Virus record (IMG/VR): IMGVR_UViG_3300027828_000049 | Location: 1-43,610 of that record | Reading direction: 5' to 3' (one strand) | Length of the DNA: 43,610 nt | Source of the DNA: a virus | Taxonomy: Duplodnaviria; Caudoviricetes | Shown: in pieces, positions 980 to 30,900 of the stretch | Position numbering within the stretch: the first letter of the stretch is position 1 | Layout of the letters: every line of letters begins with the position of its first letter | Notes under the pieces: generated by a model | Database searches by the model: none | The model's input: the letters and a program-made list of their open reading frames with translations, nothing else | What the model was told of the DNA's origin: nothing | Program-made: the position numbers and the translations under genes

Positions 980-980
980 T

Positions 981-1009
981 TTGCATTAACAACACGCCCT
1001 TTGTATAAT
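981..1009 (+). promoter_or_regulatory. sigma70-type promoter driving non-coding element 1
   Basis: TTGCAT (981-986), 17 bp spacer, TATAAT (1004-1009); the -10 is flanked by the inverted repeat ACGCCCTT/AAGGGCGT. Confidence 0.75.
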
Positions 1010-1014
1010 AAGGG

Positions 1015-1616
1015 CGTAACAAAGCGGTGTGAGAGTCGCTGAAAGTGGAAAAGTAATTTGGGTTTATAAGTTCTGGTCTTAGTGTTCGTGGGTAACTCTC
1101 ACTTATGCTTTTCCAGCCCTGAGTTGCTAGGGTCAGATCTTATAAGCCCTTTTTTGCGCCTGCTAGATACTACTTAGCTTTAGCTCTACAGCATAAGCCC
1201 TAGAAGGTGCAACCCCCTTCAACGCTCCCGCAGAGATTCATTCCTTTAGCCATCCAGTGCTAATCCGCAAAGAACTGCTTAGTTTCACTGAGTAAACAAT
1301 CAAAACAGCTCCAGCACGATCGATGCTCTATGTGTGACTGCAAATCCATAGCTTGGGGAATCAGTTTAGGCTGGTTGGTTATGGAGGATTAAGAGGGGGA
1401 GCGATTCATCTTGAGCCAATCATGGATGATGACAAACAGCATTGACAATGTACCGATTAGGAATCCATCTTCGTCTGATGTAAAAATGACTGCTGATAAG
1501 TGTTTTGATTGAGCCAATTGGTTATAAAGCGTATTAAGATTAGAGCTTAGAGTCTTAAATACTGTCATCGGGGATTAGAAGCCCTCTTATTGATTACTAT
1601 TGTCTAAAACAAAGGA
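1015..1616 (+). ncRNA. large structured non-coding element, copy 1 (C4-like 5' module plus ~450 nt conserved body)
   Basis: About 600 nt with no long ORF; 25-bp G-U-rich stem 1060-1084/1125-1149 followed by a U-tract; colinear homology to 19040-19557. Confidence 0.7.
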
Positions 1617-1623
1617 GCCACAA

Positions 1624-1842
1624 ATGTCACATATTGAACGAATGAAAACTGAACACAAAGAGCTTAAAGAGCTTAAAGCAAAGATTGACGCGCTAAACAA
1701 GTTCATCTACAAGCAAGAAGATAATATTTTCGATACGCTTGATAAGGACGAGCAAGTACGTATGGTGCGGCAATTGGCGTTTATGAATGGGTATTTAGGT
1801 ATGCTTGATTCTCGCCTGTGGGTTGCTCACGGCAATAAATAG
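1624..1842 (+). CDS. small coiled-coil phage protein (resembles crAss001_48-related family)
   Basis: MSHIERMKTEHKELKELKAKIDALNKFI...QLAFMNGYLGMLDSRL pattern; RBS AAAGGAG; ATG 1624 preferred over TTG 1600. Confidence 0.7.
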   Translation: MSHIERMKTEHKELKELKAKIDALNKFIYKQEDNIFDTLDKDEQVRMVRQLAFMNGYLGMLDSRLWVAHGNK

Positions 1843-9899: not shown

Positions 9900-10081
9900 T
9901 GATTCAGGCGAGAAACCTAAAGTTAAACAAAAATGGCACCATAGATCTTGAATTTAATCATCATATATTTGGGTGGATACCGTTCACTGCATCCAAAAAT
10001 GACTGCGAGCCGCACGGCGTTGAGATATACCAGCGGGCAATAAATGGCGATTATGGTGAGATAAAAGAGGCATCAGAATGA
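9899..10081 (+). CDS. small tail fiber assembly-type protein (60 aa)
   Basis: ATG 9899 overlaps the upstream TAA; GWIPFTAS..D.EPHG...Y.RA..G.YGEI motif seen in genes next to tail fibers. Confidence 0.65.
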   Translation: MIQARNLKLNKNGTIDLEFNHHIFGWIPFTASKNDCEPHGVEIYQRAINGDYGEIKEASE

Positions 10082-12996
10082 AATCAGCATATCAGTTTTT
10101 CGTCTTAGATAAAGGCATTGAGCAGCCATTCTCATCGATAGAGGTTAGGCACGATGGTGACTTAGTTCCTATTTACTCAGATAAAGACGGAGCTCCAAAG
10201 GCAAACCCATTTCAAACAGGTGATGACGGTTACGCCTTGTTCTACGCAGACGCAGGCACCTACAACATCAAGGCGTCTTATTCCGGTAAATCGTTTGAGT
10301 TTGTTGATGTGCAAATCGGCACTCAAACATCAAATAACGTGGTTCAGCGTTACTATCTGACATCTGACACATCAACGGTATCAAAATCCGGCGCGATTTT
10401 TGGTGCATCAGTTTATGTTGATGGCGATTACCTACCTCCTGACAACGGTGACGGTGTAGTTAATTGGTCTATCACAAGTAACGAACTGGGCACTATTACG
10501 TTCACACCGCCAATCACGGCAAGCGTTGGTACACCTAAGACGATAACCGTTTATTGGTACTCAGAGACTAACGACGCTGTGCTTGATCTGCAGGGTGGAC
10601 TGATAACCTATTACCAAGGTCAGTTTGACGCGGCCGTTGCAGGTTGGGACGCCGACGCCGATGCATCACTAACAGCTAGAGAGTCAATCTGGGATAACTC
10701 ACTCGCACAAAAAGAGTCTGAGTTTGACATTGCAATATCAGGAATTGATGGTGTAGATATTGGGCTGTACTCAACGAACCCAACGTACACAGCTTACAAT
10801 CAGTACACAACATACGATAGGGCTGGGACAATTGAGCGCTGGTATCTAAAGCAATCTGTCCCACTTGGTTACATCGTTGACTCTGTAGCATACCCAGACC
10901 CGCAAAGTGATAGTGCAAATCTATACCCTAGCGATCAGGTTACAGAGCAGTATGTAAATGACAGGGCGTCTCTTGCAAACCTGCTTTCAAACCATAACTT
11001 CTTAATTCAAACACCTGACGATTCACAGCCGCAACCAGATGCGACACCTAGAAGCTACCCGCCGTCGTTTGAAATCTTTTCTGGCGTATTTGCCAATGAA
11101 ACAACCGGCATTACAAACCTTACTTACATTGATGGACGGTTATCATTCTCTGGCGGTGATTTTTATTTTCCCGTACCAAATTCAGGCGGCCTTGAACGAT
11201 TAACCAACTTTGTTGCGTCGGTGGCTGACTTTGACGGCAAACCACGAACTCGAGGCGTTTCTTATGCGCTTGTTGGTGATGAATACCGTATCACCGTGAC
11301 AACCGATGCGCTTGAAGATGTTAGTGCTAATCCAACCCCTTTGGGTTCTGTGAAGTTTGAGCAGGGGAGCGTGGCAACTGGGCATGGCATACAAAGGCCA
11401 TCGCCATTTAAAGTTTTCTCTTCTCTCTTTACGGATGGAACATACACAGAACTCAACGTGCATAGCACTTCTGTTGGGGATCGCATTGCTGTTGATGATT
11501 ACGCGCCCGGCAATAACTCAGGCGTATTATTTTTCAATGTTGTAGCTGATGGGACCGGCACTGCTGATGGCGGTAAGTTTGTTCAGGGTTCTGGCTTTCA
11601 ATTAGAGCAGATAATGAAGGTAGCCCCGACTGCCAAGGATTGGGGCGCGAAAGGAAACGGCGTAGATTATGATGATGCTCCTTTTGCAGCAGGGAAAAAC
11701 TATCTTAGATCTGGGCAGGAAACTAAAGAGTTAGTTATTCCAGCTTCTAAATACAAGTTTCAGAGCCAGTTTGAGTATGATATTTCTCAGCTTAGAGTAA
11801 ATGGACAATCTGCAATATTAGATTTCTCAGATGTAACATCTGGAGCTGCTGTAAGAATAACCGGGGGCAGCAGAACAATTTCTGGCGCGCCATTCCTAAA
11901 CGGTATTAACCCGCTGAGTGGAGTTGAGATAATTGGCCCTGGCAAAGCCTCTTCAGGATCTCAGGGGGTTTTGTTTGATGATGACGACATACAGGGGTCA
12001 AATGACGTTACTGTAAAAGATGTAATTATTCATGACTTTGAAACGGATCTAGTTCTGGGTGATAACGCTTACCATCTTACATTTGAGTCATGCTCGTTCT
12101 TCTTTTCTGGAACATGTGTGACAGCAGAGCAACACAGCAACGCTGGAGCAAGGACTGTATTTGATCATTGTAGATTTTTTAATTCTGATAATGGTGCGAA
12201 CCTGAAAAACGCATCATCAGGCAGCACTAGCTTTATCGGGTGTGTGATTGCTGGTATATCAACTGTTGATTTTCTTATAGAAGGCGGAAATCTTGAAGTC
12301 GCATATTGTGATATTGAGACAGGCGGCAGTCAACCATCAGATCACAGGGTTTTATGGGTTAATGGTACAACTTCATTTAGCTACATATCGTGGGATAGCA
12401 ATAATGTTGCTGTCAAGAATGCAACCACGGTGCCGGTTTTCGATATCGACTCACCTTGCTTTCTAAACATGGTAGGCGGTGAAGCGTTCATCAATGCATC
12501 AAGTACTGGTGGCGTATTTGGATCAACAGGTTCCGGTACGGGTTCAATAAACATCCTAGGCACATTCCTTGATTATGGCTCAAATCCTTTGGAGTTATTC
12601 AACGGAGCGACAATTAACGTTCACCGTTTTTTACCGAATCTGAACACGATAGTTTCAAATGCATCATATAACACCACTGGCAATATGACAGCCGCCGAGG
12701 TCAAGTCTAGCAATGGTTTGTTTACAAATGATGACTATACGGTACAAGTAACTGCACTATCAACGTGGACTAGCTTAGGTTATGCCGCTTCACAATCTGG
12801 ACTGTTAATTATTAAGGATAAAACTTCGGGAGGCATGGCTACATATCAGTGCGATGTTGGAACAGGGATTTGTATAGAAATTGCAAACAATATAACTGGG
12901 CTAACCTCTGTAGGTTACCCATCTGGTGTTTTATCTGTTCAATTGAGTAGCGGGACAATACCGAGAAACTTAAGCGTCTGCCTGGTTAGCGTATAA
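10078..12996 (+). CDS. tailspike/receptor-binding protein with a parallel beta-helix (pectate-lyase-like) domain
   Basis: 972 aa; AKDWGAKGNGVDYDD start-of-beta-helix motif near residue 518, followed by repetitive beta-helix-like strands. Confidence 0.85.
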   Translation: MKSAYQFFVLDKGIEQPFSSIEVRHDGDLVPIYSDKDGAPKANPFQTGDDGYALFYADAGTYNIKASYSGKSFEFVDVQIGTQTSNNVVQRYYLTSDTSTVSKSGAIFGASVYVDGDYLPPDNGDGVVNWSITSNELGTITFTPPITASVGTPKTITVYWYSETNDAVLDLQGGLITYYQGQFDAAVAGWDADADASLTARESIWDNSLAQKESEFDIAISGIDGVDIGLYSTNPTYTAYNQYTTYDRAGTIERWYLKQSVPLGYIVDSVAYPDPQSDSANLYPSDQVTEQYVNDRASLANLLSNHNFLIQTPDDSQPQPDATPRSYPPSFEIFSGVFANETTGITNLTYIDGRLSFSGGDFYFPVPNSGGLERLTNFVASVADFDGKPRTRGVSYALVGDEYRITVTTDALEDVSANPTPLGSVKFEQGSVATGHGIQRPSPFKVFSSLFTDGTYTELNVHSTSVGDRIAVDDYAPGNNSGVLFFNVVADGTGTADGGKFVQGSGFQLEQIMKVAPTAKDWGAKGNGVDYDDAPFAAGKNYLRSGQETKELVIPASKYKFQSQFEYDISQLRVNGQSAILDFSDVTSGAAVRITGGSRTISGAPFLNGINPLSGVEIIGPGKASSGSQGVLFDDDDIQGSNDVTVKDVIIHDFETDLVLGDNAYHLTFESCSFFFSGTCVTAEQHSNAGARTVFDHCRFFNSDNGANLKNASSGSTSFIGCVIAGISTVDFLIEGGNLEVAYCDIETGGSQPSDHRVLWVNGTTSFSYISWDSNNVAVKNATTVPVFDIDSPCFLNMVGGEAFINASSTGGVFGSTGSGTGSINILGTFLDYGSNPLELFNGATINVHRFLPNLNTIVSNASYNTTGNMTAAEVKSSNGLFTNDDYTVQVTALSTWTSLGYAASQSGLLIIKDKTSGGMATYQCDVGTGICIEIANNITGLTSVGYPSGVLSVQLSSGTIPRNLSVCLVSV

Positions 12997-15747: not shown

Positions 15748-15948
15748 TTGAAGTGTTTGATGTGCCCTACTGAGCTAGGGCAGTTCGCTGGAAAGCGGAA
15801 GTATTGCTCAGAAGCTTGTAAACAAAAGGCCTATAGAGAGAGAAAAAACAATGAACTTAATGATAAAGAGCCAAGCCATAACAATGAGCAGCCGAGAGAT
15901 TGCGGAGTTGACCGGCAAGGAAAAGAAGACGATTCACAGGGATATTAA
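15748..15948 (+). CDS. small zinc-finger protein
   Basis: CLMC...YCSEACKQKAYRER; TTG start after AGGAG. Confidence 0.65.
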   Translation: MKCLMCPTELGQFAGKRKYCSEACKQKAYRERKNNELNDKEPSHNNEQPRDCGVDRQGKEDDSQGY

Positions 15949-16510
15949 GTCAATGGCCGATCAGCTTGGGTATGGTACAGATGTGTACCATGATTCAAAG
16001 TTCGGAATTACACTTAAGCATGATGGTCGCGGTTATTGCGAAATGATCTACTTAGACAGGAAGCATACTGACTGCCTTCTTACTGGGTATTCGGTAAAGG
16101 CAAGAATGAGGGTTATTGAGCGATGGCATGAGCTAGAGGGCGGTAATAAGCCAGCACTACCCCAAACATTTGCGGAAGCCCTCCAATTAGCCGCCGACCA
16201 AGCCAAGCTAATTGAAGAAGCTAAACCGAAAGTTGAGTTCCACGATACTGTAACCCAGTCTGAGCACACATACAAATACCAAGAGGCTGGCAAGAAGATA
16301 CAGCAACGCCCTAACAAGTTTGTTGCATGGCTACGTGACAATGGATATATCGACAAGCTAAATACGCCTTATCAACGGTATATAACTCAAGGCCTATTCA
16401 AGATGCACACCGGAGTTAATGGCGACACTGGCCATGAATACACGCAAGGCCGGGTAACCACGAAAGGTTTGAGTTACTTCACTAACAAGCTTGAGGGGAT
16501 AAAGCTATGA
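15851..16510 (+). CDS. Rha-family/antirepressor (Rha N-terminus plus KilAC/ANT C-terminus)
   Basis: TMSSREIAELTGK..., LLTGYS...VIERWHELE, LPQTFAEALQLAADQ, KPKVEF and VTTKG motifs. Confidence 0.85.
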   Translation: MNLMIKSQAITMSSREIAELTGKEKKTIHRDIKSMADQLGYGTDVYHDSKFGITLKHDGRGYCEMIYLDRKHTDCLLTGYSVKARMRVIERWHELEGGNKPALPQTFAEALQLAADQAKLIEEAKPKVEFHDTVTQSEHTYKYQEAGKKIQQRPNKFVAWLRDNGYIDKLNTPYQRYITQGLFKMHTGVNGDTGHEYTQGRVTTKGLSYFTNKLEGIKL

Positions 16511-19003: not shown

Positions 19004-19033
19004 TTGAAAACATGATCAAGGAGTTGATATAAT
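19004..19033 (+). promoter_or_regulatory. sigma70-type promoter driving non-coding element 2
   Basis: TTGAAA (19004-19009), 18 bp spacer, TATAAT with an extended TG (TGATATAAT 19025-19033). Confidence 0.75.
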
Positions 19034-19039
19034 ACATAC

Positions 19040-19557
19040 GTACCTTTTGGTGCAGCGGAGTTGAAAGACCGCTTAGAAAACAATGACAGAGGGTTTAGTT
19101 AGTAGCAATCTCGGTGGGCTTTGGTCTGTCAGGTTGTGCCCCTCTTTCAAACGGGGTTGTTACTACCTAAGCCCTTTTTTATGCCTGTTAGATGGCCTTT
19201 TGGTTACTGGCAGCAGTCTAGCGAAGACTTAAACGCACAAAGCAGGATAACAACTAACCTCCTGCGGCAGGCATAAATCCCTTCTAAGCCTCTTCACTGA
19301 GTTCACACCTTAGCCTACAGTAGCTATCCGCCCATACTGCCGGAGTTGACCGGAGACCAAACAAGACAATTTATCTGGAATGGATCGTTTGACGTTAAGA
19401 CGCGATAAACAGAGCTTGGTGTCCTTGAAAGCGAAAGCGGACTGATGTGCGAACATCTAAAATATGGCCTGATACTAAACCATCCATTCTTTTAAATTAA
19501 ATGACCCTTTGGTATTTCAAGGACAAGGTCTTAATTGACCTTATTGTTAAAAGGAAA
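19040..19557 (+). ncRNA. large structured non-coding element, copy 2
   Basis: About 520 nt with no long ORF; 24-bp G-U-rich stem 19090-19113/19152-19175 plus U-tract; colinear homology to 1015-1616. Confidence 0.7.
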
Positions 19558-19561
19558 CTTT

Positions 19562-20053
19562 ATGAGAAGTGGGCGAATGAGTATGTCCTATGCCGTTGAT
19601 AGCTTATCACTTGTTGACGGTGTTTTAGTTAGAAATGACGGTAAAAAGATGTCCTTAACAAAGCATAGTGATGGTTACGATATTGTCCTTCATGGAAAGT
19701 ATCAAAATACATACCATAGAATTGTTTACTGGTTGTCTACAGGTGAGGATCCGAACTACATAGATCATATTGATGGCAACCCGGAAAACAACGCTATAGA
19801 AAACCTAAGGCCTTGCAATCAGAGTCAGAATAATGCCAATACTGGGATTAATAAGGCTAACACCAGCGGTTACAAAGGGGTGACTTGGAACAAGTCTTGC
19901 GGGAAATGGCACGCCCAGATTAAAGATAATAAGAAGCGTGTTTATCTAGGTGTTTACGATGACATAAAAGATGCAGCGAAAGCCTACGATGATGCGGCGG
20001 TAAGAATATATGGCGAATTTGCAAAAACAAACAAAATGCTTGGCTTGCTTTAA
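19562..20053 (+). CDS. HNH endonuclease with a C-terminal AP2 domain
   Basis: YHRIVY...IDHIDGNPENNAIENLR...N and NTSGYKGV.W...W.AQI...YLG motifs; ATG 19562 after AAGGA. Confidence 0.9.
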   Translation: MRSGRMSMSYAVDSLSLVDGVLVRNDGKKMSLTKHSDGYDIVLHGKYQNTYHRIVYWLSTGEDPNYIDHIDGNPENNAIENLRPCNQSQNNANTGINKANTSGYKGVTWNKSCGKWHAQIKDNKKRVYLGVYDDIKDAAKAYDDAAVRIYGEFAKTNKMLGLL

Positions 20054-28754: not shown

Positions 28755-29339
28755 ATGAATAACTTTGAAATGACTGATGAGCAAAAGGAGTTGTTCGATA
28801 AGTTAACGCCACTTCAGCAAAAAGTAGCCGTTAACGTCATTTCAGGGATGAGTAATATTGATGCGTATGTTGAAGCTGGTGGCAAGTCTGAAACCAGAGA
28901 GTCTGGAGAGGCATCCGTAAGCCGCATGTTAAGGGATGTTAAGGTTAAGGCTTTCGTTGATAGTATGAAGAAAGAAGCGGTCAAATGTGCCGTTATGAGT
29001 CGTCAGGAGATGCTAGAGCGACTATCTAACCTTAGCCGTGTAAATATGTCAGATTTAATTGAGTGGCGCACAGGGCGATCTACGAACGCTGAGGGTGAGG
29101 AGGTTGAACAAACACTTTGGTCAATTAAAGAATCAGCCGAGCAAGACCCATATGCAATGGCATCAATTGCAGAGGTGACGGCGGGGAAAGATGGATTCAA
29201 GATTAAGCAACACTCACCATTGGCCGCAATGAAACAGCTTGCGGACCTGGCCGGATATAACGCAGCCAAGCAGGTTGAGGTTGCTCTAACTGATGATTTT
29301 GAATCGCTATTAAGCGACGCTGCTGATGACGAAGAGTGA
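28755..29339 (+). CDS. terS: terminase small subunit
   Basis: LTPLQQK...AY..AG...SVSRML N-terminal HTH, MSRQEMLERLS and KIKQHSPLAAMKQLA; upstream of TerL. Confidence 0.88.
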   Translation: MNNFEMTDEQKELFDKLTPLQQKVAVNVISGMSNIDAYVEAGGKSETRESGEASVSRMLRDVKVKAFVDSMKKEAVKCAVMSRQEMLERLSNLSRVNMSDLIEWRTGRSTNAEGEEVEQTLWSIKESAEQDPYAMASIAEVTAGKDGFKIKQHSPLAAMKQLADLAGYNAAKQVEVALTDDFESLLSDAADDEE

Positions 29340-30900
29340 CGAGGTAGAGCAGGCTCTATATTACGTTTACAAATTCAACAATAGAGACCTTACAAAGCAA
29401 GAGTTCAAGAAGGCGGTAGGACTGAAGTTCTTCCGCCTTTGTGCGTTTTACTTCATTAAAGATAAGGACGGCAACAAAGTAAGATTCTCTCCTAACGTTG
29501 CGCAGGTTGAGTATTACAAGAATTCACACCAGAACGACATAATCCTTAAGGCTCGCCAGCTTGGGTTTACTACGTGGAAAATGATACACGACCTTGATAG
29601 TTGCTTATTTAAGAAAAATTTCTCTGCCGGGTGTATAGCTCACAACGATAAAGACTCGAAGGATATATACCGCAATAAGATCCGGTTCGCTTACCAGAAC
29701 ATAAAGCCATCAATCATTAAGCTGCTTGAGTCTATTGGCTACAAGCTCCCGACGCCGACAAATGATAAAGACAACGGCTATGTTTTCACTAATGGATCAT
29801 CGATTGGCGTGTCAACCGGCTACCGTGGAGGGACTTTGCAATCGCTCCATATCAGCGAGTTCGGGAAAATATGCAAGAAGTACCCAGAGAAAGCGAAAGA
29901 GATTGTAACTGGTGCGTTTAACTCTGTCGGTAAAAACTGCACAAAGACAATTGAGAGCACAGCTGAAGGGAAGCAGGGATATTTCTATGATTATTGCCAG
30001 GCTGCTCAGAAACTAAAACAGCAAGGCAAGACCCCGGCATCGCTTCAGTTCAAGTTTCATTTCTTCTCATGGTGGATGGATCCGAATTACTTTATCGATG
30101 AGGATGTGGATATACCTTCTAGGCTGCTGGATTATTTTGACATCCTAGAGCACAAAAAAGGCATCAAGTTAACTGACGGGCAAAAGAAGTGGTACACGCT
30201 AATCGAGGCCGATCAAGGCGACGAAATGAAGCGAGAGTACCCATCCACACCAGAGGAGGCGTTTGAGCAGGCAATTGAGGGTGCGTATTACGCCAATCAA
30301 TTTAAAGACATATACAAAGATGGCCGTATCTGCGATGGCTGGGGGAATGAAGCTGACGTATTTACAGCTTGGGATATCGGCGTTGGGGATTCGACATCTA
30401 TTTGGTTCTATCAGCATGTTGGCGATGAAATACACGTGATCCACTACTACGAAAACTCAGGTGAATCGCTAGGTCATTACATAAAATACCTTGAAGATAT
30501 TGGGGAGGTTAACGGTTGGCACTATGGTAAGCATTGGGCTCCGCACGATATAAACAACCGAGAGTTTGCATCCAAAGGTAAGACCCGCAAGGAGCTAGCT
30601 AAGGAGGGTGTTGAATATGGCGGTGTGACCTACTCAATCAACTTTGATGTCGCTCCAAAGTTGGGTATCGATGATGGCATAGAGATGGTAAGGCAACTAC
30701 TACCTAAGTGCGTGTTCTTCGAAAAGGAAACGGAACGGGGCGTTAAGTGTTTAGAGTCATACCGCAAGGAGTGGAATGATAAGCTAGGCTGCTGGCGAGA
30801 TAGCCCACTTCACGATTGGTCATCACACGGCGCTGATGCATTTCGTTACCTGGCGGTAGTTGAAAACCAGAGAAGCGCAGGCGGCTTCGTATTCCTGTAA
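29326..30900 (+). CDS. terL: terminase large subunit
   Basis: ILKARQLGFTT Walker A, LHISEFG Walker B, ESTAEG coupling motif, WDIGVGD nuclease and HDWSSHGADAFRY. Confidence 0.95.
   Translation: MTKSDEVEQALYYVYKFNNRDLTKQEFKKAVGLKFFRLCAFYFIKDKDGNKVRFSPNVAQVEYYKNSHQNDIILKARQLGFTTWKMIHDLDSCLFKKNFSAGCIAHNDKDSKDIYRNKIRFAYQNIKPSIIKLLESIGYKLPTPTNDKDNGYVFTNGSSIGVSTGYRGGTLQSLHISEFGKICKKYPEKAKEIVTGAFNSVGKNCTKTIESTAEGKQGYFYDYCQAAQKLKQQGKTPASLQFKFHFFSWWMDPNYFIDEDVDIPSRLLDYFDILEHKKGIKLTDGQKKWYTLIEADQGDEMKREYPSTPEEAFEQAIEGAYYANQFKDIYKDGRICDGWGNEADVFTAWDIGVGDSTSIWFYQHVGDEIHVIHYYENSGESLGHYIKYLEDIGEVNGWHYGKHWAPHDINNREFASKGKTRKELAKEGVEYGGVTYSINFDVAPKLGIDDGIEMVRQLLPKCVFFEKETERGVKCLESYRKEWNDKLGCWRDSPLHDWSSHGADAFRYLAVVENQRSAGGFVFL

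What the first reader, a model, noticed from the sequence alone, without database searches (positions are those of the whole stretch)
1015..1616. Two diverged, colinear copies of a ~520-600 nt promoter-driven non-coding element: candidate undescribed large ncRNA or RNA-primed replicon
Seen: in a genome otherwise tiled with genes, 1015-1616 and 19040-19557 have no long ORF, each follows a good sigma70 promoter, and they share ordered blocks from end to end. (a) An AGCGG-loop-(T/C)CGCT hairpin. (b) A 24-25 bp stem starting GGGTTTA and ending TAAGCCCTTTTTT, with many G-U pairs that only form on the + strand. (c) GCCTG(C/T)TAGAT. (d) A core, CCTTTAGCCATCCAGTGCTAATCCGCAAAGAACTGC (1243-1278) versus CCTTAGCCTACAGTAGCTATCCGCCCATACTGC (19308-19340). 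(e) ATCCAT...AAATGAC (1463-1490 versus 19482-19505). (f) A 3' block TCTTA.TTGA...TATTGT.TAAA..AGGA running into the next RBS (1585-1616 versus 19529-19555). The downstream genes are unrelated, so this is not a gene-specific leader. Known: ColE1 replication uses a ~555 nt pre-primer RNA controlled by loop-loop pairing, and Vibrionaceae MRB plasmids also use RNA-based origins. Inference: this is either a large structured phage RNA family or a protein-independent, RNA-primed origin present twice with different specificities.
Basis: partly seen in the sequence, partly recalled or inferred. Interest (0 to 1): 0.9.

Follow-up and report, generated by a model that had tools for sequence, protein, structure and literature searches.

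The report
Large tRNA-carrying marine phage RNA
This marine phage carries two copies of an uncatalogued ~550-base non-coding cassette, shared with dozens of related phages, whose base pairs are kept through compensating mutations and which sometimes holds tRNA genes; it is predicted to make a short and a long folded RNA, the short one likely acting as a switch on the long one.

Summary
Confirmed, and larger than reported. Both regions belong to a family of promoter-driven non-coding cassettes (median 544 nt, promoter to next start codon) in marine Vibrio and Pseudoalteromonas phages; I collected 69 distinct 5' domains. No Rfam, plasmid or E. coli match.

There are three modules. D1 (~135 nt) is a small hairpin and linker, then a long stem ending in a 5-7 U tract. 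The hairpin loop and the linker each covary with a partner at the far end of the stem. D2 is a slot holding real tRNAs (12 of 62 members), tRNA-sized hairpins or almost nothing. D3 (~250 nt) is a covarying double pseudoknot ending at the next ribosome-binding site. A short covarying helix ties D1's 5' end to the block after the slot.

The linker helix cannot form within one molecule once the long stem has formed. It is therefore either a co-transcriptional antiterminator or an intermolecular bridge. Best reading: a self-regulated attenuator heading a GOLLD/ROOL-like large RNA. A ColE1/MRB-type origin is not supported. Expression and function are untested.

The parts
980..1009 (+). Copy A sigma70-type promoter (10/12 match); start predicted near 1015
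   Evidence: a promoter match in 21 of 21 window/BLAST-derived members
1023..1040 (+). A-D1 hairpin 1; its loop strand L1 (1029-1035) is complementary to 1096-1102
1046..1055 (+). A-D1 linker strand J, complementary to J' at 1106-1115 (10 bp)
   Evidence: 100% of cells paired in 13 sequences, 6 of 10 pairs with double changes
1060..1155 (+). A-D1 long stem P2 (type A: apical loop carries L1' then J') and U tract 1150-1155; predicted intrinsic terminator
   Evidence: U tract of 5-7 in 69 of 69 members (partly a selection criterion)
1156..1210 (+). A-D2 slot: tRNA-sized hairpin at the position where relatives carry tRNA genes
1221..1278 (+).
   Evidence: positions read from the ruler
1297..1589 (+). 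A-D3 double pseudoknot: Pa 1297-1307/1501-1511, PK 1390-1397/1582-1589, Pc 1427-1434/1563-1570
1624..1842 (+). Downstream 72-aa ORF (PF21825, crAss001_48-related); not part of the cassette
19004..19033 (+). Copy B sigma70-type promoter (11/12 match, extended -10)
19054..19073 (+). B-D1 hairpin 1; loop strand L1 (19061-19068) is complementary to 19143-19150
19078..19090 (+). B-D1 linker strand J, directly abutting the stem base; complementary to J' at 19125-19137
19091..19180 (+). B-D1 long stem P2 (type B: J' in apical loop, L1' in 3' bulge) and U tract 19175-19180; an alternative short hairpin at 19139-19156 would present L1' as a loop
19181..19274 (+). B-D2 slot: tRNA-sized element closed by a 9-bp acceptor-like stem
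19275..19340 (+). B pyrimidine-rich trailer and post-slot block; 5-nt P0 partner at 19327-19331
19377..19535 (+). B-D3 double pseudoknot: Pa 19377-19385/19482-19490, PK 19394-19401/19528-19535, Pc 19420-19430/19515-19525, with GNRA-capped hairpins at 19431-19438 and 19444-19457
   Evidence: 15 of 32 pairs with double changes among 3 sequences
19562..20053 (+). Downstream HNH-AP2 endonuclease ORF; not conserved next to the cassette

Best explanation
The element is a conserved ~550-nt non-coding cassette of marine gammaproteobacterial phages, with three modules whose base pairs covary, and it is predicted to give two RNAs from one promoter, the 5' domain likely working as a self-regulated attenuator. 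Shown: promoter consensus, pairings, tRNA slot, modular assortment. Inferred step 1: during transcription the linker pairs with J' and the hairpin loop kisses L1' before the 3' arm of the long stem is made. This would close the stem's 5' arm inside a ring, so the two-turn terminator helix could not wind up while the RNA is tethered to polymerase, and polymerase would read through. Inferred step 2: transcripts that miss this fold stop at the U tract as a ~135-nt RNA that displays all four complementary strands. It could capture the linker and loop of nascent transcripts in trans and favour termination, a negative feedback as with P4 CI RNA. Inferred step 3: the read-through RNA folds with helix P0 closing round D1 and the slot; RNase P and 3' nucleases would release the tRNA or its hairpin mimic. 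D3 likely folds as a stable structural RNA of the GOLLD/ROOL kind.
For: D1 type A: 13 sequences, 91.5% of cells paired, 0 of 500 shuffles as high, slid controls 39-51%. Cognate versus non-cognate duplexes: L1 -11.2 vs -5.6 (A) and -7.1 vs -5.1 (B); J -13.6 vs -7.8 and -13.4 vs -7.3 kcal/mol; 0 of 20000 permutations each (27 sequences picked by BLAST or sequence pattern, not by complementarity). Both helices are present in 54 of 69 members versus 73 of 600 random pairs; J ends 0-5 nt from the stem base in 52 of 54. The J/J' helix appears in the minimum-energy fold of truncated transcripts in 5 of the 6 copies folded, all but L310. Internal sense promoters are at background, 5 of 58, so D2 and D3 need read-through. 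Neighbouring genes vary widely and no Q or N antiterminator was named in the window. P0: 5 of 20000 permutations for 62 sequences, 181 of 20000 for 21 non-redundant ones. D3: tail/body permutation 0 of 20000 for 20 sequences and for a 12-sequence subset. Precedents: P4 CI and IsrK (PMC4825925, passages); tRNA embedded in GOLLD (PMC12990946, passages).
Against: No transcript evidence of any kind. The two-fold energy test did not discriminate: the alternative fold was within 3 kcal/mol of the terminator precursor in 57 of 69 real sequences, but also in 73% of sequences with shuffled leaders. J' and L1' stay unpaired in the terminator fold, so they do not sequester the terminator directly, which fits an assembly scaffold equally well. 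Ten of 69 members have only the loop kiss, which could form in cis with the stem intact. P0 is only 4-5 bp in most members. The three-helix D3 pattern beat all 6 shuffles in only 28 of 58 (above the shuffle mean in 49 of 58). Several D3 subfamilies (L008, L010, L144 types) gave no clear pattern. Related sequences inflate permutation tests.
Confidence: 0.42

Rival explanations
1. The covarying loop and linker pairings are intermolecular bridges. With the long stem formed as a rigid strut, D1 (alone or within the long RNA) stacks head to tail into rings, filaments or cages, as manA, ROOL, GOLLD and phi29 pRNA do. The U tract is just a leaky terminator or processing site.
For: All four complementary strands are exposed with the stem intact. 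J abuts the stem base while its partner lies more than 20 bp away. The stem is longer than a terminator needs. Covarying 'pseudoknots' in ROOL and GOLLD proved to be intermolecular (10.1101/2024.12.08.627333, passages). RNAs under 200 nt form cages and filaments (10.64898/2026.07.01.735769, parts 1-2 of 5).
Against: In cis, J/J' would form first during transcription. The U tract with a G+C-rich stem base is kept in all 21 BLAST-derived members, which were not selected for it. No self-complementary loop was noticed (by eye only). Not exclusive of the best explanation.
Confidence: 0.3
2. D1 is a constitutively terminated late-promoter leader or small RNA, read through only with a phage antiterminator protein (lambda pR'-tR', StxS type). 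The rest is a tRNA operon with a separate downstream structured RNA or 5' UTR.
For: Promoter, short terminated RNA, then tRNAs; in several phages the cassette lies shortly upstream of the terminase genes. D1 and D3 assort independently. A long stem makes a terminator resistant to antitermination in one system (PMC10325885, abstract).
Against: It does not explain the two covarying long-range helices or P0. Position varies: before methylases, tail spikes, replication genes. No Q homolog was named among 73 window proteins.
Confidence: 0.14
3. The cassette is an anti-defence device: tRNA cargo replaces host tRNAs cut by anticodon nucleases, and D1, D3 and the tRNA-like hairpins act as decoys or protein sponges.
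For: Moron-like placement with its own promoter at varied sites; cargo varies (Arg, Met, Ser, Trp, Gly, Val, Lys); most slots hold only tRNA-sized hairpins. The role of phage tRNAs in countering anticodon nucleases is recalled, not from a call.
Against: No direct evidence. It says nothing about the D1 pairings.
Confidence: 0.1
4. An RNA-primed replication origin of ColE1/MRB type.
For: Similar size (~500-550 nt), variable complementary loops, Vibrionaceae hosts (PMC3035462, passages).
Against: Antisense promoters at background and no G6 run. No plasmid match. The loops pair within one strand rather than with an antisense RNA. tRNAs are inserted inside. No skew inflection at either copy at 2-kb resolution (a weak test). 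The window encodes two proteins with replication-initiation profile hits.
Confidence: 0.04

Closest known systems
GOLLD (RF02032) and ROOL (RF03087) RNAs
   Same: Large, multi-pseudoknot, phage-associated non-coding RNAs near tRNAs. GOLLD has separable 5' and 3' domains and can embed a tRNA; covarying long-range pairs are intermolecular bridges (10.1101/2024.12.08.627333, PMC12990946, PMC5737381: passages).
   Different: No covariance-model match. Marine Vibrio and Pseudoalteromonas phages. An internal long-stem terminator-like domain with a U tract sits ahead of the tRNA slot. Oligomers are not shown here.
manA RNA (RF01745)
   Same: Short-to-medium structured RNA of marine phages and Photobacterium that forms cages through loop-loop kisses (10.64898/2026.07.01.735769, parts 1-2).
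   Different: Best match in the window is 5 bits against a cut-off of 55, at another place. Different architecture.
P4 CI RNA / P1 C4 RNA / Gifsy-1 IsrK
   Same: A leader-encoded structured RNA with complementary sequences in its own leader; short and read-through forms; action in trans on its own transcript (PMC4825925, passages; C4 recalled).
   Different: No Rfam C4/isrK match. Downstream content is tRNA plus a structured RNA, not an antirepressor operon. The RNA itself ends in the terminator-like stem.
HK022 put RNAs
   Same: Protein-free RNA control of termination just after a phage promoter; two per genome (PMC9378689, passages).
   Different: put is ~70 nt with two adjacent stem-loops and binds RNA polymerase. 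Here the sequence covaries freely, which points to RNA-RNA pairing.
Lambdoid pR'-tR' short RNA (StxS)
   Same: Constitutive promoter followed by a short terminated RNA (PMC7547250, search listing only).
   Different: It needs the Q protein (recalled). No E. coli match. No comparable covarying helices are known to me.
ColE1 and MRB replicons
   Same: Length; loop-based specificity (PMC3035462, passages).
   Different: They need an opposite-strand RNA I, for which no conserved promoter was found; no plasmid homologs.

Membership tests
GOLLD | Match to RF02032 above 150 bits | tested here: not met
GOLLD | Phage location near or around tRNAs | tested here: met
   tRNA inside the cassette in 12 of 62 members; 12 of 56 loci
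GOLLD | Protein-free homo-oligomer | not testable with these tools
   needs biophysics or cryo-EM
ROOL | Match to RF03087 above 99 bits | tested here: not met
   (the control genomes were also silent, so that call alone is weak)
ROOL | ~580 nt with several covarying pseudoknots | tested here: met
   median 544 nt; generic likeness only
manA | Match to RF01745 above 55 bits | tested here: not met
ColE1/MRB replicon | Conserved antisense RNA I promoter | tested here: not met
   5 of 58 against ~11% background; MRB promoters can be atypical, so this is a consensus test only
ColE1/MRB replicon | Sequence similarity to plasmid origins | tested here: not met
ColE1/MRB replicon | G-rich hybrid-forming tract (ColE1; recalled) | tested here: not met
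   0 of 58 with six or more G after the U tract
ColE1/MRB replicon | Autonomous replication | not testable with these tools
   bench test
P4 CI / C4 / IsrK | Loop or bulge sequences complementary to the upstream leader | tested here: met
P4 CI / C4 / IsrK | A second, downstream target copy (seqC) | not tested
   looked at by eye only; none obvious
P4 CI / C4 / IsrK | Rfam match and downstream antirepressor operon | tested here: not met
   the window's antirepressor gene (15851-16510) lies upstream of copy B
HK022 put | ~70 nt, two adjacent stem-loops | tested here: not met
HK022 put | Binds the beta-prime zinc domain; processive antitermination | not testable with these tools
   bench test
Intrinsic terminator | G+C-rich stem base directly followed by a U tract | tested here: met
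   the short-loop scanner misses it because of the large apical part

The most novel reading that the evidence does not exclude
A new class of large phage RNA in which one set of freely covarying sticky ends does two jobs. In cis it topologically locks out a two-turn terminator. In trans, displayed on the terminated ~135-nt RNA, it silences sister transcripts and drives head-to-tail self-assembly of a cage or filament that carries tRNA cargo.
Probability: 0.22. Interest if true: 0.95.

Novelty: new variant of a known kind. Interest (0 to 1): 0.82.

Why it matters
Only a handful of large, ornate non-coding RNA classes are known in bacteria and phages, and the functions of GOLLD and ROOL are open. 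This family adds one in culturable phages of tractable hosts: V. natriegens phage L3 and Pseudoalteromonas phages HS2 and BS5. It comes with natural loop variants that serve as ready-made compensatory mutants, and with members that carry tRNA, a hairpin mimic or nothing in the slot. That makes the question of what such RNAs do with their tRNA neighbours directly testable. If D1 is a protein-free attenuator working by topological lock, it is a mode of termination control I did not find described. If it self-assembles, it is a natural, sequence-programmable 135-nt building block.

Tried and rejected
Rfam at E<=1 on the window (3 weak unrelated hits) and on 15 homolog loci (tRNAs plus weak chance hits). 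Single-family searches for manA, ROOL and GOLLD. ARAGORN on the window: 0 genes. Plasmid and E. coli collections: no match.

GTDB pattern scan: 120 loci from about 40 of 64 parts, none matched the D1 profile. A weak model (R1, 17 pairs) over 151 genomes of one order gave 1 hit on a short contig (L308), so prophage spread is not established. The G003 hit L297 looked like a plain palindrome.

Sequencing runs: no RNA holder listed; this is no evidence either way. The two-fold energy comparison was not discriminating. Whole-element folding was z -3.1 for copy B and +0.4 for copy A; this method ignores pseudoknots.

Two-copy genomes (window, NF, G167) each have different loop strands in their two copies. 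By a rough estimate from loop-class frequencies this happens by chance about half the time, and cross-duplex energies were mixed, so orthogonality is not claimed.

Group I intron, RNase P, hammerhead and HEARO/omega-RNA readings were rejected on Rfam, topology and neighbour variability. A decayed gene was rejected on covariation. A tool count of type-B pseudoknot pairs was dropped because the alignment was out of register between rows; one search covers type B without alignment. Earlier-findings look-ups returned nothing.

Paper searches showed no description of this family. Four supplementary files of the viral structured-RNA survey PMC10690425 had no hit for my motifs, but its zip archives and PDFs could not be searched and may hold fragments of the family.

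Full report
Context. The window is a ~44-kb tailed phage with head, tail, terminase, methylase, HNH, antirepressor and replication-like genes (73 proteins scanned). It is a linear virus record, 93% complete. Copy A lies between small unknown ORFs ahead of head-tail genes; copy B lies ahead of an HNH-AP2 gene and a methylase.

Observation. The copies align at score 353 against 184 +/- 23 for shuffles (0 of 500), above every other window compared. Both follow good promoter matches and their first 145-150 nt fold strongly on the plus strand only.

Family. BLAST of the two copies hit 7 and 10 phage records, all Vibrio phages, and the hits split into a 5' part and a 3' part. Further BLAST with relatives, pattern scans of viral contigs and of metagenomes added members. 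A structure-based scan gave 73 rows. I dropped 10 by eye as chance (L090, L139 plus strand, L157, L379, L382, L392, L396 twice, L407, L441) and added 6 known members it missed, giving 69 distinct 5' domains. That scan demanded a -10 box, a U tract and a 6-nt complement, so counts over the 69 are partly circular; the tests use sets chosen by BLAST or plain sequence pattern. Named hosts are Vibrio and Pseudoalteromonas. A related descriptor with the promoter condition found 20 hits in 1.13 Mb of phage DNA and 0 in 0.44 Mb of unrelated genome loci. There was no match in Rfam, plasmids or E. coli. The distance from promoter to next start codon has median 544 nt, 10th-90th percentile 468-696, and the downstream proteins are unrelated to each other. 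NF and G167 also carry two copies.

D1. A 4-5-bp hairpin with a 6-10-nt loop (L1) is followed by a linker (J), then a 65-103-nt stem domain ending in 5-7 U. L1 and J each have a complement at the far end of the stem. In type A (31 of 69, copy A) both lie in the apical loop, L1' first. In type B (23, copy B) J' is apical and L1' is in a 3' bulge. Ten have only the loop kiss, 3 only the linker helix and 2 neither by this test. In 13 type-A sequences the J/J' helix is 100% paired with 6 of 10 pairs doubly changed, and L1/L1' has 3 of 7; slid controls fall to 39-51% (four apical stem pairs in my structure string were misplaced and count against the total). Without alignment, cognate duplexes beat non-cognate ones for both strands in both types (0 of 20000 permutations). 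J ends 0-5 nt from the stem base in 52 of 54 members with both helices, while J' is more than 20 bp away. With the stem formed, J/J' therefore cannot form inside one molecule (inference from helix geometry). It is either a transient fold that precedes the stem, as truncated-transcript folds suggest, or a contact between molecules.

D2. Right after the U tract comes a slot. It holds one to three ARAGORN tRNAs in 12 of 62 members with enough sequence. Over 56 whole loci, all tRNA genes found (12 loci) lie inside the cassette. Others hold a tRNA-sized element closed by an acceptor-like stem of 7 bp or more, or almost nothing; two such remnants still score as tRNA in Rfam (L144, L011). Both window copies have the hairpin form. 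Keeping the closing stem while losing the content suggests a processing signal (inference).

P0. The permutation test gave 5 of 20000 for 62 sequences and 181 of 20000 for 21 non-redundant ones. This helix can exist only in a read-through RNA. It is the main evidence that the modules belong to one long transcript that folds across the tRNA slot.

D3. Three long-range helices appear in the order Pa5', PK5', Pc5', Pa3', Pc3', PK3', a double pseudoknot ending about 20-40 nt before the next start codon. The tail pairs better with its own body than with others (0 of 20000 for 20 sequences and for 12 one-per-subgroup; one tail, L304, was anchored at the wrong motif). An unanchored search beat the shuffle mean in 49 of 58 and all six shuffles in 28 of 58; for copy A its window cut off the tail, so PK and Pc there come. 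In copy B and its two closest relatives, 15 of 32 pairs are doubly changed while junctions are invariant (only three sequences, structure set by me). D3 assorts independently of D1: L002 (type A) and L004 (type B) share 98% downstream identity. Every locus reached through a D3 or post-slot hit that I inspected (L003, L298, L299, L300, L301, L303, L304) had a D1 upstream. D3 looks absent in L006, L138 and L400.

Mechanism. A U-tract terminator-like domain sits between the only promoter and everything downstream, with internal promoters at background and no shared protein neighbour. I therefore commit to D1 as an RNA attenuator: early J/J' and L1/L1' pairing would trap the stem's 5' arm in a ring and allow read-through, and the terminated RNA, with four free sticky strands, could feed back in trans (0.42). 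The assembly reading (0.3) is close and compatible. A Q-dependent leader (0.14), an anti-defence decoy (0.10) and an RNA-primed origin (0.04) follow. The energy test meant to separate switch from non-switch failed to discriminate, and no RNA data were listed.

Comparison. It works like GOLLD, ROOL and manA in setting and covarying kisses, and like P4 CI/IsrK in leader self-complementarity, but it fails the model test for each. What I saw of the papers: passages of 10.1101/2024.12.08.627333, PMC12990946, PMC5737381, PMC4825925, PMC3035462 and PMC9378689; parts 1-2 of 5 of 10.64898/2026.07.01.735769; the abstract of PMC10325885; the search listing of PMC7547250; four supplementary files of PMC10690425 by term search. 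Nine searches of the held library showed no description of this family. Subscription papers and the unsearchable supplements remain unchecked.

Verdict. A real, apparently undescribed family of large structured phage RNAs (about 0.9 that it is a functional RNA family), with mechanism inferred only. Interest 0.82.

Noticed in passing
window 993-1018; L005, L007, L003, L011 promoter regions: Inverted repeats overlap the cassette promoter in many members; they could be operators or terminators of the upstream gene.
   Followed up: no
L151, L434, L042, L395, L400 slot regions: Unusually long slot contents with 13-23-bp hairpins and T-arm-like remnants, possibly further nested RNAs.
   Followed up: no
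L006 (phage BT-1011) 2631-2660: A protein gene starts about 20 nt into what is tRNA-Met in phage H2, replacing the tRNA and D3; the same protein follows the intact cassette in Seahorse.
   Followed up: partly
L377, L300, L429, L301, L308, L061 D3 subfamily: The Pc 3' strand has two overlapping upstream partners that both appear to covary, hinting at a second switch or branch migration in D3.
   Followed up: no
L007, L151, L436 D1: Members whose hairpin loop matches its partner imperfectly, possibly recent recombinants between loop classes.
   Followed up: no
window 29326-30900: The 524-aa ORF after the terminase small subunit hits only unknown-function PHROGs and no Pfam family, although it sits where the large terminase is expected.
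   Followed up: no
window 10078-12996: A 972-aa ORF after the tail genes with no PHROG hit; probably a receptor-binding protein.
   Followed up: no
L312 13627-13694 (phage 1.039): A weak partial D1-like match with a terminator ahead of an antirepressor-like gene; probably an ordinary terminator.
   Followed up: partly
L154 2926-2999: A slot tRNA called Val with an unusual anticodon for bacteria; it may be a degenerate tRNA.
   Followed up: no
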